From positions 1 to 27,690 of the forward strand of contig NW_021834092.1 of NCBI RefSeq assembly GCF_006345805.1: DNA of 27,690 bases, in the 5' to 3' direction. Source of the stretch: Octopus sinensis (taxonomy: Eukaryota). The notes below the pieces were generated by a model. It saw nothing but the letters and a program-made list of their open reading frames with translations, searched no databases and was not told where the DNA came from. Below are positions 761 through 26,080 of this stretch, in pieces; the stretch's first letter is position 1; the number at the start of each line of letters is the position of its first letter. The position numbers were made by a program, and so were the translations under genes.

Positions 761-966
761 GTTAATCCAAATATGAAAACACAAAGAGAAAGCACAACAA
801 CACGAGGACGTGGAACTAGTATAGTGTTATTGGACGCTCAGGAAAGAAGGAAAGAAAGGGAGGATTTAACGTTTCGAGCGGAGCTCTTCGTCAGAAATAT
901 AGGAAATGGAAAGATCCAAGGAAGGGAAGGCGGAGGAAAAAATCACCAACGATACACACGCGGTAA
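761..966 (-). mobile_element. ~200 bp short interspersed element with hammerhead-like core (Penelope pLTR-like / non-autonomous)
   Basis: Minus strand reads ...cgttggtgatttt...tttCTGACGAagagctccgctcGAAAcgttaaa...cacgtcctcgtgttgttgtgctttctctttgtgttttcat. Same layout as 5834-6012 and 25869-26080; flanked by (TA)n. Confidence 0.65.
864..898 (-). ncRNA. Minimal type I hammerhead ribozyme-like motif
   Basis: Minus strand: AUUU-CUGACGA-A-GAGC(UCC)GCUC-GAAA-CG-UU-AAAU. Intact CUGANGA and GAAA cores, 4-bp stem II, 4-bp stem I (AUUU/AAAU), palindromic ACGU in place of stem III, GUU triplet. Confidence 0.65.
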
Positions 967-1143
967 AATTTATATATGTGTATATAGAAGCAGACATATA
1001 TATATACATACACACACAAAAACACACATGTATATATATATATATGTTTATGTATTAATATGCATTCTGACACACGTACACGTGCTCGCATCTACACAGA
1101 GGCACATGCACACACACACGAACACACTGACATCTATACATAT

Positions 1144-1517
1144 TGTGGCACTCTGTCGGTTACGACCACGTGGGTTCCAGATTGATCCGACCAACGGAAG
1201 AGCTTACTGGTGAAATTAACGTGTAAGTGACTGAGCACTCCACAGACACGTGTATCCTTAACATAGTTCTCGGGGGAGATTCAGCTTGACACAGAGTGTG
1301 ACAAGGCTAGCCCTTTGAAATACACGTACAACAGAAACAGGAAGAAAGAGTGAGAGAAAGTTGCGGTGAACGAGTACAGCAGGGTCACCACCAGCCCCTG
1401 CTGGAGCTTCGTTGTGATTTAGATGTGTTAGCTCAAGAAACACTCACAACGCCCTGTCTGGGAATCGAAACCGCGATCCCACGACCGCGAGTCCGCTGCC
1501 CTAACCACTGGGCCATT
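1144..1517 (-). mobile_element. tRNA-derived SINE, near full length (resembles octopus OK/Ceph-SINE with RTE-like 3' tail)
   Basis: Minus-strand head TGGCCCAGTGG (A box) and GGTTTCGATTCC (B box). The 3' part (+ strand tgtggcactctgtcggttacg...gagcactccacagacacgtg) matches my recollection of the cephalopod SINE tail; family name not verified by search. Confidence 0.8.
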
Positions 1518-1744
1518 ACATATATGTATGTCATCTTCAGAACCGTTCCATCTATTCTCGATTGTTTCTGATGTTATCCTTTTTTTTTTCCTCCCATGAC
1601 CAAAAACACAGACGTCGTGTGTGAATAGCGCGCCTTCCCCAGAGGAGTGTCGTTAGCCACAGCCAGGCAGAAACGTTTTTAAACCTCTTCACAATCTCCT
1701 TTTCTGCCGCCTTCTTCCGCTCGCATTCTTTCCTCCTCTATCAT

Positions 1745-2212
1745 TCCCGCTCTTTCACCGCCTTTCTCTCTTTCCTGCTCTCTTTAATGTTTTTTTCACT
1801 GCTTCCTGAAGTTATATTTTCTTTCTTTTCTTCCTTCTTTCTTAACTTCTTTCCTTCCTTCTTTCTTTCTTTCTTACTCTTTTCTTTATTTCGTTCTTTC
1901 TCTCTTTCATTCTTTCTTTCTTTCCTTCCTTCTTTCTTACCTTCTTTCCTTCCTTCTATCTGTCTTTTCTTTCCTTCTTGCATTCTTCCTTTCTTCTCTG
2001 TTTCTCTGTCTGTTTCTTTCTTTCTTTATCTCCTTTTCTCTCTTTCCTTCTTTCTTTCTTTCTTTCTTTCTTTTTCATTTTTATTTGATTCTTTCCCCCT
2101 TTCTGTAACCTTCTTTCTTTCTCTCCCATCATTTTCTCTATCCCACTCCCTCTCTCTCTCCTTCTCTCTCTCCCTCTCCCTCTTTCCCCCCACCTCTCTC
2201 TCTCCTTTATTC
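1745..2212. repeat. Polypyrimidine/polypurine low-complexity tract (TTTC/TTCC/TC)n
   Basis: About 470 bp of almost pure C/T on the + strand. Confidence 0.9.
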
Positions 2213-2246
2213 CATTATAAATATCCCTCTATGCCCCTACATATAT

Positions 2247-2397
2247 TCTGTATTCGCTACCAAATCTACTCGGAAGGATTTGGTCGGCTCTAGGCTATAG
2301 TAGAAGACAATTGCCCAAGGTGCCATGCAGTGGGACTGAATCTGGAGCCATGTAGTTGGCAAGAAGGCTTCTTACCGCAGAGCTACGTCTACGCCTA
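2247..2397 (-). mobile_element. 5' half of tRNA-headed SINE (same family as 15791-16162), diverged
   Basis: ggctatagtagaagacaattgcccaaggtgccatgcagtgggactgaa...cttacc aligns by eye with 12270-12425 and 16168-16325. Confidence 0.85.
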
Positions 2398-2410
2398 TAA
2401 CATAATTGTG

Positions 2411-2470
2411 TTCCCATGCCAGGAATCGAAGACGACCTGCGCGGGTGAAAGCCAGGAATACTAACCACTA
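2411..2470 (-). pseudogene. tRNA-Glu(TTC)-derived relic, 5'-truncated
   Basis: Minus strand TAGTGGTTAGTATTCCTGGCT-TTC-ACCCGCGCAGGTCGTCTTCGATTCCTGGCATGGGAA resembles metazoan tRNA-Glu(TTC). Anticodon at 2449-2447. The acceptor 5' strand is replaced by (TA)n and the T-stem is disrupted. Confidence 0.7.
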
Positions 2471-2486
2471 TATATTATATAATATA

Positions 2487-2539
<53 letters not shown>

Positions 2540-2709
2540 GTTGTGTGTGTGTGGAGATTGCGAGAGGAGAGAGAGAGAGAGAGGAAGAAAGAGTGAGAAA
2601 GATCGAGCGACCTACATTTCAAAATAATTATAGATAAATATAGGTATATGCATACATACAAAATATTACGTATGTAACGTATATATATGTATGCATATAT
2701 GTATGTATA

Positions 2710-2761
<52 letters not shown>

Positions 2762-2769
2762 AATATATA

Positions 2770-2808
<39 letters not shown>

Positions 2809-3155
2809 TATAGATATATAGATATTATATTTATATATGCTACTCTTAATATTAATATATACCCAGATATTATCACCATACATACTCTCTGAATGAATTG
2901 AGATTCTATCCGATAGGAACAAGTCTATGCAGGAAGCGCATGCATGTGACGTTCGGGTATATTCATGGATATGTCTTTGTGTGAGGGTATATCTGTGTTT
3001 GTTTACGTATGTCTAATTTATATTTGCTTTTGTTTCCCGCTCGTGGAAATACAACACATTACATGTATGTCTATCAACCTACTCGACTTTTCGTCCATAT
3101 CTATCCTTCCCTCTCTCTCTCTCTATCTCTCACTCTCTCACTCTCTATCTATATT

Positions 3156-3240
<85 letters not shown>

Positions 3241-3491
3241 TTATCTCTCTCTCTCTCTCTCTCTCTATAATATATTATATTATATAAATATATACACACA
3301 TTATATATATATATATATATACACATATATATAGACCTCAGGACGTCTATCAAAGAATCCATCTATTTAAACACAACATGCACACACGTATATATTGTAT
3401 ATAAACGCATCCACTACAAGCCACAATGCATATTATTATATATATATATATATATATTACATATATCTATATACATATTATATATAGATAT

Positions 3492-23592: not shown

Positions 23593-23619
23593 ATTATAAT
23601 AATAATAATAATAATAATG

Positions 23620-23680
<61 letters not shown>

Positions 23681-23685
23681 TAGCA
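23593..23685. repeat. (TAA)n microsatellite
   Basis: Directly visible. Confidence 0.95.
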
Positions 23686-23979
23686 ATTATTATCAGGAGA
23701 ATAGCAACAGCAATAAAAATAATAATGGAATATTCCACATCTAGGATTCTACATGAAGGATTTTATTTTATATTTCTAAGTATGTCAATATGAGAATGTG
23801 TGTTTATGTGGGCGCGCACGTGTGCGTGTGCGTGTGTTTGAATATGTGTAGGTGTATGTGTGGGTGTGATGGCGTATCTACTTTTTAATAGTTCTTTAGA
23901 ATCTTTTCAAAGCCCCTTTTGTGTAGGGGAAAACGTTTTGCTGTTTCTACGCTGAAGAGCAGAATTAAAAACGAAACCA

Positions 23980-24025
23980 ATTATTATTATTGTTATCGTC
24001 GTTGTATTGTTATTGATTTTGTTTA

Positions 24026-24078
<53 letters not shown>

Positions 24079-24310
24079 TTATTATTATTATTATCTATAT
24101 TATCATTATTATAACTATTTGAGATGAACAAAGACGTAGGAAAAACAAAAAAACTAGTGTCTGTCTATGTACGTATATATATATATGTATGTATGTATGT
24201 ATGTATATATATATATATAATATATATATATATTCACACATATATATATATATATAATATATATATATATATACATATATATGTATATATATACATATAT
24301 ATTATGTAAG

Positions 24311-24343
<33 letters not shown>

Positions 24344-24810
24344 TTATTTATACACACGCACACCCACACACACGCACAAACAGAAACAAATATGGTCTCA
24401 TATATTATATAGATATAAATGTGTATTTATTAATAAATACACTAGTTGGCGGACAAAATATGTATATAGATGTACAAATACTTATAAATATGGATATATT
24501 TGTACATATGATTGCTTCTCTGTCTATCTGTCTGTGTGTGTATGAGTGTGTGTGTCTCTCTCTCTGTATGTATTTTTACTGTTTACTTTATTATTTTTAC
24601 TGTTTACTATATAAACATATACATACAAATATCTCTCCCCCCCTCTCTCTCTCGCTCTCTGTATAGATAGATAAATAGATAGGTAGAGTAAGTTAGAATC
24701 AAATAAAGAAAAGTAAAATGTTAGAGACAAAGAGAGAGCGAGAGAAAGAGAGAAAGAAACAGAAAACAAAGAAAGAGAGAAAGAAAGAAGGAAAACACGA
24801 AAGAAAGAAT
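23980..24810. repeat. Compound (ATT)n, (TA)n, (TG)n, (GA)n low-complexity region
   Basis: Directly visible. Confidence 0.85.
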
Positions 24811-25336
24811 GGCGGTAGGAAAGAGTCATGTTATTTCGAAGGGGCGATAGAGACATTCTGAAAGAAAAGTGTCAGATAGATCACGGAAAACGCAAACTTC
24901 CCCTCACAAACAAACAAACAAACAAGCACACACACAAACATGAAATCATCCACATTAGCGTGCGTCTATCTAAATTCCTCTTACACTGGTCTCTAAACGT
25001 CATAACTATCGGGTAATTACAGATGAAATGAAAAATTCTATTGTGTTTAAAAGTGAAAGATATTTCTTCGCCTTATTTGTTCACCTCTAATTGCCGCGAA
25101 TGTCTGCAATTTCGAAGGAAACGTTAAAATGTAAGCATAACAAGACGAACAAAATGATTAATAAACAAACCGTAACAATAGGAAGTCGACCATTATGTTG
25201 AATCCCAGAAAATAATAGCGAAAACCTGATTTATAATTGTCTGCTTTTATAGTAATGTTAAACTATAGGTTAGTTGTTGTTTGTGTTATTGTTGTTGCTG
25301 TTGATGCTTTGTGTCTTGTGCTGCAATGTTTATCCT

Positions 25337-25337
25337 T

Positions 25338-25375
<38 letters not shown>

Positions 25376-25497
25376 ACGCCGTGACTTTAATAGTTATTTC
25401 AGAGTATAAGCATAATATGTTTTAATAGATTCACGGTGTAACGGTTGTCGCTGCTGCTAGTGATGATCGTGATGAAGACGACGACGACGACGACGAC

Positions 25498-25535
<38 letters not shown>

Positions 25536-25566
25536 CGACGACGACGATGACGATGTTGTTGTTGTT
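25337..25566. repeat. (GAT)n and (GAC)n/(GAT)n trinucleotide repeats
   Basis: Two blocks, ~25337-25375 and ~25460-25566. Confidence 0.9.
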
Positions 25567-25868
25567 AATTCGACAGCCGCTTAGAATTTAGGAGTTTGGG
25601 GCATGGATGAGCTAAACAGAAGCTGCTGCCTTTGTACGATGTTCGATCTAAGATTGTCGATATTTCACGTAAATGTGGCGATTTATGAATACATACATAC
25701 ATATATACATACATATACACATACATATATACGTACGTACATACATACCTCATAAATGTATAATTACATAAAAACATACACGCATACATACATCAATACA
25801 TACCTGCATAAAATCATACAAACATATATCATCACTTTATTATCTCCCCTTCTCCCTAGCCCTCCTGT

Positions 25869-26080
25869 GTGACCCTCCTGACCGGCATTCGCCATGATAA
25901 ATCGCTAGCGACTACACATTCTTTATTTTCTCTCCTTGTTTCTTTCTGTGTTCCTTTCTATGGAAGAGCGTAGGCTCGAAACGTTAATGACTTTTTCACT
26001 TCCCGAGCATTATACTAATACATTTGTTTCTTGTCTACACCACCTGTCTTCGTCTTTTGTTTTTTTTTGTGTGAATTCTC
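25869..26080 (+). mobile_element. Short element with degenerate hammerhead-like core, related to 761-966
   Basis: gtgacc...tttCTATGGAagagcgtaggctcGAAAcgttaa...T-rich 3' half. Shares gaagagc/gctcgaaacgttaa with 864-898; followed by (CATA)n. Confidence 0.6.

What the first reader, a model, noticed from the sequence alone, without database searches (positions are those of the whole stretch)
761..26080. Family of ~180-210 bp microsatellite-embedded elements sharing a hammerhead-like core (761-966, 5834-6012, 25869-26080)
Seen: three diverged islands with the same layout: pyrimidine-rich arm, core (CUGACGA / CCGACGA / CUAUGGA), short stem II region, invariant CGAAACGTTAA and a T-rich 3' half. Two start with GTGACC, all abut (TA)n or (CATA)n, and none has an ORF or tRNA head. 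Stem II loops differ (UCC vs GUAG) while GAGC/GCUC pairing is kept in two copies. Inference: a high-copy non-autonomous Penelope pLTR-derived or retrozyme-like system that targets microsatellites. Three copies in 28 kb would imply a very large genomic copy number.
Basis: partly seen in the sequence, partly recalled or inferred. Interest (0 to 1): 0.75.

Follow-up and report, generated by a model that had tools for sequence, protein, structure and literature searches.

The report
Penelope retrotransposon ends with minimal hammerheads
Two of the three islands are cut-short tail ends of very abundant Penelope-type jumping genes and the third likely is too, each carrying a small hammerhead-ribozyme-shaped motif, an arrangement already described in animals; the one unusual point is that a large branch of the family has fixed a change in the motif's catalytic core and still spread widely, though cutting is untested.

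Summary
The islands are real and related, but they are not a new non-autonomous system. They are short 3' ends (pLTRs) of one clade of Penelope-like retrotransposons. The clade has at least 26,792 exact hammerhead cores in this 2.72-Gb genome. Island-3-type ends lie downstream of 25 of 30 GIY-YIG hits, island-1-type ends downstream of 16 of 20. Two complete copies show pLTR, an RT/GIY-YIG ORF of about 950 aa, and a second pLTR. Island 2 is an older sister family; no ORF link was found. The motif fits the published minimal PLE hammerhead. Only island 1 keeps an intact core. Copies end in (TA)n (52 of 58; controls 94 of 1,241). Two points go beyond what I read. The island-3 branch has fixed A6U (11,581 exact cores against 116 with A6). 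And 5' ends pile up 55-90 nt before the core (55 of 70 copies), as expected if reverse transcription starts inside pLTR-initiated RNA. Neither cleavage nor expression was shown. The scan found this kind of element before, on other DNA and elsewhere in this genome. New member of a known kind; interest 0.3.

The parts
761..966 (-). Island 1: short 3' end (pLTR) of an A6-branch Penelope-like element; its 5' end lies at the family's pile-up site and its 3' end joins (TA)n
   Evidence: 91-98% identical full-length copies; alignment; same end type downstream of RT/GIY-YIG in L250, L252 and L368, L380
864..898 (-). Intact minimal type I hammerhead motif: stem I AUUU/AAAU, CUGACGA, unpaired A, stem II GAGC-UCC-GCUC, GAA, palindromic ACGU, U17; predicted cut between 868 and 867
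   Evidence: sequence; layout as in PMC4209133; cleavage not tested
5828..6043 (+). Island 2: decayed short copy of an older sister family (76-84% to its relatives), after a (CATA)n tract; boundaries approximate
   Evidence: no ORF-linked copy found
5888..5922 (+). Broken hammerhead remnant: CCGACGA (U4C), unpaired A lost, stem II disrupted, GAAACGUU
25830..26082 (+). Island 3: 5'-truncated 3' end of a U6-branch Penelope-like element, followed by (CATA)n
   Evidence: 90-95% identical copies; boundary from long relatives; RT/GIY-YIG upstream in 6 of 7 long relatives
25954..25989 (+). Hammerhead motif with a private G5A change (CUAUGGA; family CUGUGGA, with the family-wide A6U), stem II GAGC-GUAG-GCUC, GAAACGUU; likely inactive
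684..760 (.). TA-rich microsatellite at the 3' junction of island 1
5706..5833 (.). (ACAT)n tract at the 5' side of island 2
26082..26170 (.). (CATA)n tract at the 3' junction of island 3
   Evidence: sequence

Best explanation
Islands 1 and 3 are short 3' ends (pseudo-LTRs) of one clade of endonuclease-bearing Penelope-like retrotransposons with tens of thousands of copies, island 2 is likely the same from an older sister family, and all were likely inserted by the element's own GIY-YIG nuclease and reverse transcriptase at (TA)n tracts. SHOWN: full elements are pLTR, ORF (RT, CX4CX2C linker, CCHH GIY-YIG), a long low-complexity 3' UTR, and a pLTR; each pLTR holds a minimal hammerhead motif about 100 nt from its 3' end; most copies are only about 200 nt long and end in (TA)n. 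INFERRED: (1) the nuclease nicks (TA)n and primes reverse transcription at the pLTR 3' boundary, where the pLTR/body junction also reads TATA. (2) The mRNA begins in the upstream pLTR about 75 nt before the hammerhead core. Initiation at the first pLTR/body junction then copies only about 205 nt (the island-1 and island-2 form), while initiation at the downstream pLTR gives long, variably truncated copies (the island-3 form). (3) The hammerhead can form stem III only with a second copy and is weak or protein-assisted; uncut RNA is the usual template. The three solo copies here are likely inert: islands 2 and 3 have broken cores, and island 1 has no partner.
For: ORF linkage: 25 of 30 GIY-YIG hits (one is the query's own locus) have an island-3-like end downstream on the same strand, as do 5 of 5 long-ORF loci, 0.6-0.8 kb downstream. 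16 of 20 chosen hits have an island-1-like end 1.5-3.3 kb downstream. L235 and L236 carry two pLTRs, 98.7% and 98.5% identical, around a 1,008-codon open frame. Pfam RVT_1 E 1e-7 and a sub-cutoff GIY-YIG match (E 0.006) for L205; DKG, YIDD, CX4CX2C and CCHH in L235. Nested 5' extensions: 14 of 30 island-3 relatives extend 112 to at least 1,500 nt; 16 of 30 selected island-1-type copies extend 80-1,312 nt, and 2 of 20 reach coding sequence. Copy number: 26,792 exact cores, reversed-pattern control 0. Target: 52 of 58 copies with a recognisable end are followed by a TA-type tract, against 94 of 1,241 random positions. Hammerhead signature in 245 copies (copies, not events; stem II and C3/G5/G8/A9 fixed by the pattern): position 7 takes all four bases; position 17 is U 179, A 53, C 12, G 1; stem I pair 4 is G-C 85, C-G 78, G-U 39. 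5' pile-up 55-90 nt before the core: 55 of 70 and 15 of 40 position-ordered copies. Literature: minimal PLE hammerheads (PMC4209133), (TA)n bias (PMC8557442), internal RT initiation with a dispensable, protein-assisted HHR (PMC11167929).
Against: No ORF-linked copy of island 2's family was found. Only 2 of 20 long island-1-subfamily copies reached coding sequence. The transcription start is inferred, not mapped; the pile-up site in the A6 branch (ATGTG) resembles the target repeat, so microhomology could make the same peak. In PMC11167929 initiation lay 111-118 nt inside the ORF and needed no target homology, so the analogy is loose. Cleavage was not tested. The monomer fold of island 1 prefers another helix (-7.7 kcal/mol) to the hammerhead fold (-2.2), and the double-hammerhead fold scored only -2.5. 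Rfam showed no hammerhead among the 150 of 254 matches listed.
Confidence: 0.88

Rival explanations
1. Some short subfamilies (island 2's, perhaps island 1's) are true non-autonomous elements: solo pLTRs that transcribe themselves and are copied in trans by the PLE enzymes, like SINEs.
For: Sharp 5' boundary in 55 of 70 A6-branch copies. None of 30 top hits for island 1 or island 2 shared unique upstream sequence, apart from duplicated loci. Non-autonomous PLE derivatives are known (PMC8557442 passages; 10.64898/2026.07.22.740005).
Against: The island-1 subfamily has 149 exact copies extending past the boundary, in nested lengths up to 1.3 kb, and some reach the ORF. Island 2's family is old (76-84%), so long copies may simply have decayed.
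Confidence: 0.2
2. The 5' pile-up is a truncation hot spot, not a transcript start: reverse transcription of long RNA from the downstream pLTR stops, or second-strand joining is favoured by microhomology, at that site.
For: The A6-branch boundary ATGTG matches the TA/TG target. 5' truncation is the norm for PLEs.
Against: The U6 branch piles up at the same distance at a different sequence (CGCCATG), with 0 of 40 ends at 91-150 nt. The upstream UTR is rich in CA/TA repeats yet takes few ends. A TCA, initiator-like motif (recalled consensus) precedes the site in long copies of both branches.
Confidence: 0.35
3. The motif is no longer a ribozyme in this clade; its fold is kept as a binding or pausing signal for the element's protein.
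For: A6U is fixed in one branch and U4C is common in the other (44 of 70). Changes at A6 and U4 lower cleavage (PMC3088659 passages; PMC7151607 part 1). HHR cleavage is dispensable in vitro for one PLE (PMC11167929).
Against: Position 17 stays U, A or C and position 7 varies freely, as cleavage rules (established knowledge) allow; stem I covaries. U4C and A6C are natural variants with residual activity (PMC3088659, PMC7151607).
Confidence: 0.35
4. The islands are monomers of a non-LTR retrozyme that spreads as tandem repeats and circular RNA.
For: Size (about 200 nt) and type I layout fit; solo monomers are described (10.64898/2026.07.22.740005, parts 1-3).
Against: No head-to-tail array of the unit in 6 of 6 close pairs examined. 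The motif is the minimal PLE type, whereas retrozymes are described with canonical motifs (PMC7229834 passages). Copies are collinear with PLE 3' ends rather than permuted at the cut.
Confidence: 0.04

Closest known systems
C-terminal EN+ Penelope-like elements of the Neptune/Nematis type (PMC8557442, passages)
   Same: RT followed by GIY-YIG, CX2-5CxxC linker, CCHH, DKG motif, pLTRs, HHR in the pLTR, (TA)n insertion bias, 5' truncation.
   Different: Long CA-rich or C-rich 3' UTR (0.6-3.3 kb); most copies only about 200 nt with a shared 5' end. Neptune versus Nematis was not resolved by a tree.
[quoted passage not shown]
   Same: Type I; short helix I; unpaired base between 9 and 10.1; G10.1-C11.1; palindromic 15.2-16.2; mostly single motifs from truncated PLEs.
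   Different: Helix II is 4 bp, not the 7-8 bp of the S. mansoni motifs; U4C in many A6-branch copies; A6U fixed in the island-3 branch, which I did not find in the text read (supplements not seen).
PAc (Poseidon of Anolis carolinensis; PMC11167929, parts 1-2 of 4)
   Same: AT-rich targets; HHR-bearing pLTR; internal RT initiation would explain short copies with a fixed 5' end.
   Different: Different clade. In PAc the ORF starts inside the HHR and initiation lies 111-118 nt into the ORF; here the ATG is about 430 nt downstream of the core and copies end at the pLTR/body junction.
Non-LTR retrozymes (PMC7229834, passages; 10.64898/2026.07.22.740005, parts 1-3 of 5)
   Same: Short, non-coding, type I HHR, related to pLTRs, solo monomers occur.
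   Different: Defined by tandem units and circular RNA; no tandem unit seen here, and the ends are attached to coding PLEs.

Membership tests
EN+ Penelope-like element | [quoted passage not shown] | tested here: met
   Islands 1 and 3. Not found for island 2's family.
EN+ Penelope-like element | Direct pLTRs flanking the ORF | tested here: met
   L235 1620-1995 / 7898-8276 (98.7%); L236 (98.5%)
EN+ Penelope-like element | CCHH motif in the endonuclease and DKG motif | tested here: met
   IYCIKCNLCGMLYVG, EH, RHF and DKG in L235
Neptune/Nematis type | CX2-5CxxC linker between RT and EN | tested here: met
   CSRSRCNTC in L235; CSRPRCRTC in L204, L205
Neptune (as against Nematis) | RT phylogeny with reference elements | not tested
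   No reference PLE set was fetched; 'Neptune' is a recalled resemblance
Minimal PLE hammerhead | Core CUGANGA...GAA with A15.1-U16.1 and H17 | tested here: inconclusive
   Met in island 1; U4C in island 2's family; A6U in island 3's family
Minimal PLE hammerhead | Unpaired base between 9 and 10.1, G10.1-C11.1, palindromic stem III | tested here: met
   A in 245 of 245 matched copies; GAGC/GCUC; ACGU
Minimal PLE hammerhead | Self-cleavage as a dimer | not testable with these tools
   Needs in vitro transcription
Non-LTR retrozyme | Head-to-tail tandem units, each with an HHR | tested here: not met
   Islands are solo; 0 of 6 close pairs were unit arrays; not scanned genome-wide
Non-LTR retrozyme | Circular RNA | not testable with these tools
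   Only contigs were offered
tRNA-derived SINE | tRNA-like head | tested here: not met
   ARAGORN 0 in the window; no head in the family alignments

The most novel reading that the evidence does not exclude
CUGUNGA (A6U) is a working natural hammerhead core, kept through at least four subfamilies of a successful Penelope branch, and the 200-nt copies are a genome-wide record that the enzyme starts reverse transcription inside its own mRNA and copies only the 5' leader, so that one autonomous element mass-produces SINE-like stubs without any non-autonomous partner.
Probability: 0.25. Interest if true: 0.55.

Novelty: new member of a known kind. Interest (0 to 1): 0.3.

Why it matters
The system itself is described: PLE ends with minimal hammerheads, mostly as solo motifs. 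What this family adds is a natural comparison inside one genome. Two sister branches with 67% identical proteins carry A6 or U6 cores, and both reached thousands of copies, which bears on the open question whether PLE hammerheads need to cut at all. The shared 5' end of short copies gives an in vivo test of internal initiation, shown so far for one PLE in vitro. For annotation, such stubs are easily mistaken for an unclassified SINE family.

Tried and rejected
Rfam scan: only microsatellite-driven miRNA matches among the 150 of 254 rows shown; no hammerhead row seen. Repeat finders were swamped by microsatellites. Close pairs of cores as retrozyme tandems: the six regions held local duplications with flanks, inverted pairs or separate copies. 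The PLE families that topped the Pfam GIY-YIG search (L159 and L164 types) are not the parents; they have their own, different hammerhead-like ends. Parent of island 2: none found in 30 + 10 loci, some the same place, with 1.5-kb flanks. Cut-site footprints (a lead from e1-8654857): among 352 matches in fetched DNA none began within 4 nt of the predicted cut, and a few began 5-33 nt after it, but most loci had been chosen through the core, so this is inconclusive. Expression: no RNA holder listed; contigs laid on the stretch cannot show ends or levels. Solved structures: 0 matches. The protein atlas gave no answer. The paper on PLE hammerhead variants by Lunse et al. (cited in PMC6765202) could not be read. 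The fourth near-match at 25117 (GGAAACGTTAA) was not covered by repeat matches in the fetched loci and is treated as chance.
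Full report
Observation. The anchor CGAAACGTTAA is exact at 866-876 (-), 5910-5920 (+) and 25977-25987 (+); shuffles give 0.34 matches on average and 0 of 100 reach the four seen with one mismatch. The window is one whole contig of a 2.72-Gb genome. Each island has many relatives: the 40 scored candidates were 90-95% identical for island 3 (own copy aside), 91-98% for island 1 and 76-84% for island 2, out of 2,810, 4,042 and 442 first-look candidates. 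Exact core counts are 6,941 for the island-1 type, 11,581 for the island-3 type, 10 for the island-2 type (some of these belong to the island-1 branch) and 26,792 for a pattern covering the clade; reversed controls were 0 each time. This is a lower bound: islands 2 and 3 themselves do not match these patterns. The window copies differ from their families: island 3 has a private G5A, and island 2 has lost the unpaired A and stem II. Boundaries are revised to about 5828-6043 and 25830-26082.

Identity. Relatives of island 3 share nested upstream stretches, 112 to at least 1,500 nt in 14 of 30 loci. In 6 of 7 long ones these run into Penelope-type RT or GIY-YIG coding sequence. From the other side, 25 of 30 GIY-YIG hits have an island-3-like end downstream on the same strand, and five loci with 746-829-codon frames all do. 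For island 1, a related GIY-YIG domain led to 20 loci that I picked from 150 hits (top scores and long frames); 16 have an island-1-like end 1.5-3.3 kb downstream, two of them 83-84% identical over the whole island. L235 and L236 are complete: pLTR, an ORF of about 950 aa from the first Met, a CA-rich UTR and a second pLTR 98.5-98.7% identical to the first. The 5' pLTR continues into the element body and the 3' pLTR into (TA)n, both through TATA. The ORF has DKG, YIDD, a CX4CX2C linker and CCHH, the marks given for Neptune/Nematis-type PLEs in PMC8557442 (passages). It is 67% identical to the island-3 branch protein and 28-32% to two other PLE families of this genome. The subfamily closest to island 1 also has long members: 149 exact copies pass the usual 5' boundary, 16 of 30 share 80-1,312 nt, and 2 of 20 reach coding sequence. 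For island 2's family no shared upstream sequence or ORF was found; it is placed here by sequence likeness to the island-1 branch.

The hammerhead. The layout is that of the minimal PLE hammerhead in PMC4209133 (parts 1-2 of 4 read; supplements not seen): short helix I, an unpaired base between 9 and 10.1, G10.1-C11.1 and a palindromic stem III that needs a second copy. That paper already reports that most such motifs are single and probably come from truncated PLEs. In 245 fetched copies, position 7 takes all four bases, position 17 is U, A or C in 244, and the fourth pair of stem I is G-C (85), C-G (78) or G-U (39). These count copies from a sample I selected, not independent events, and the pattern fixed stem II. 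Against a ribozyme role: the island-1 monomer prefers another helix, the Rfam rows shown hold no hammerhead, and two core positions deviate. U4C occurs in 45 of 70 island-1-type copies; it is a known natural variant (PMC3088659, passages). A6U is fixed in the island-3 branch: 11,581 cores with U6 against 116 with A6, across subfamilies that differ at positions 7 and 17 and that include long open frames. A6C is known and slows cleavage in Mg2+ (PMC3088659; PMC7151607 part 1). I did not find A6U in two searches, but the most relevant paper (Lunse et al., cited in PMC6765202) could not be read, so novelty of this variant is not established.

Target and ends. Of 70 island-1-type copies (the first 74 listed on C1, minus 4 fetched earlier), 58 had a recognisable 3' end and 52 of these are followed by a TA-type tract, against 94 of 1,241 random positions in the same loci. 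(TA)n bias is described for PLEs with this linker (PMC8557442). The 5' ends are not spread evenly. In those 70 copies, 6 end under 55 nt before the core, 55 at 55-90, 4 at 91-150 and 5 beyond. In the first 40 island-3-type copies the numbers are 11, 15, 0 and 14. Islands 1 and 2 begin at this site; island 3 extends past it.

Mechanism. Shown: structure of full elements, linkage, copy number, target and the pile-up. Inferred: the nuclease nicks (TA)n and RT is primed at the pLTR 3' boundary. PLE transcripts start in the upstream pLTR (PMC6765202 and PMC8557442, passages), and one PLE protein starts reverse transcription inside its RNA, uses uncut RNA and has a protein-assisted hammerhead that is dispensable in vitro (PMC11167929, parts 1-2 of 4). 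If this clade does likewise at the first pLTR/body junction, it copies only the 205-nt leader, which gives stubs with a fixed 5' end. I put this step at about 0.5; microhomology or an RT stop is the main rival. The solo copies in the window are likely inert.

Comparison and verdict. It is a member of the EN+ PLEs by every protein and structure feature tested; Neptune versus Nematis was not tested. It fails the tandem criterion for retrozymes (PMC7229834 passages; 10.64898/2026.07.22.740005 parts 1-3). The host looks like an octopus (recalled repeat landscape and scan notes; not established here), and a recent octopus repeat annotation lists recently active Penelope families without mentioning hammerheads (PMC13282606, passages). 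The scan has reported this kind of element several times, including fixed core changes in sister subfamilies (e1-9585077); those are unchecked notes and add no independent support. New member of a known kind; interest 0.3.

Noticed in passing
window 6330-6510 (-): A fourth repeat with hammerhead-like words in a different order (GAAAC...CUGAUGA), ending at TA; at least 8 relatives at 74-85% in fetched loci. It resembles the permuted hammerheads of earlier notes (e1-8669002); structure not tested.
   Followed up: partly
window 1-2466 and L032 (G000:C19:52230668-52233869): Island 1 and at least 1 kb of flank recur on C19 at about 97% identity: an alternative haplotype or a segmental duplication.
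   Followed up: partly
window 18990-21440, with 3' pieces at 22446-22950 and 23090-23590: Broken non-LTR retrotransposon sequence set in (AAT)n tracts, with a weak RVT_1 match (E 0.03); looks like R4/Dong (recalled). The two 3' pieces form a near-identical tandem.
   Followed up: no
window 1137-1519, 2257-2407, 11979-12440, 15602-16350: High-copy SINE-like repeats (33-107 fetched loci match); A/B-box-like heads seen by eye.
   Followed up: no
window 26540-26930: Frameshifted fragment resembling a mariner transposase C-terminus (HSPDLVPS...HL; recalled motif).
   Followed up: no
L159, L143, L164, L130, L141, L145: Other PLE families of this genome have their own hammerhead-like 3' ends before (TA)n, including U3-A8 cores (UUGAUAA) and CAUG, GUAC or CCGG palindromes. 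The L159 type has a separate 479-codon upstream frame.
   Followed up: partly
L236 1311-1746; L319; L349: Ends of the two branches sit next to each other across one (TA)n tract, as expected from repeated insertion at the same target.
   Followed up: no
L204 about 1920: A full-length U6-branch element begins at the pLTR/body junction directly after (TA)n, with no 5' pLTR: a unit-length copy.
   Followed up: no
window 12461-12556 and 18929-18993: Perfect minisatellites: 19 bp x 5.1 and 18 bp x 3.6.
   Followed up: no
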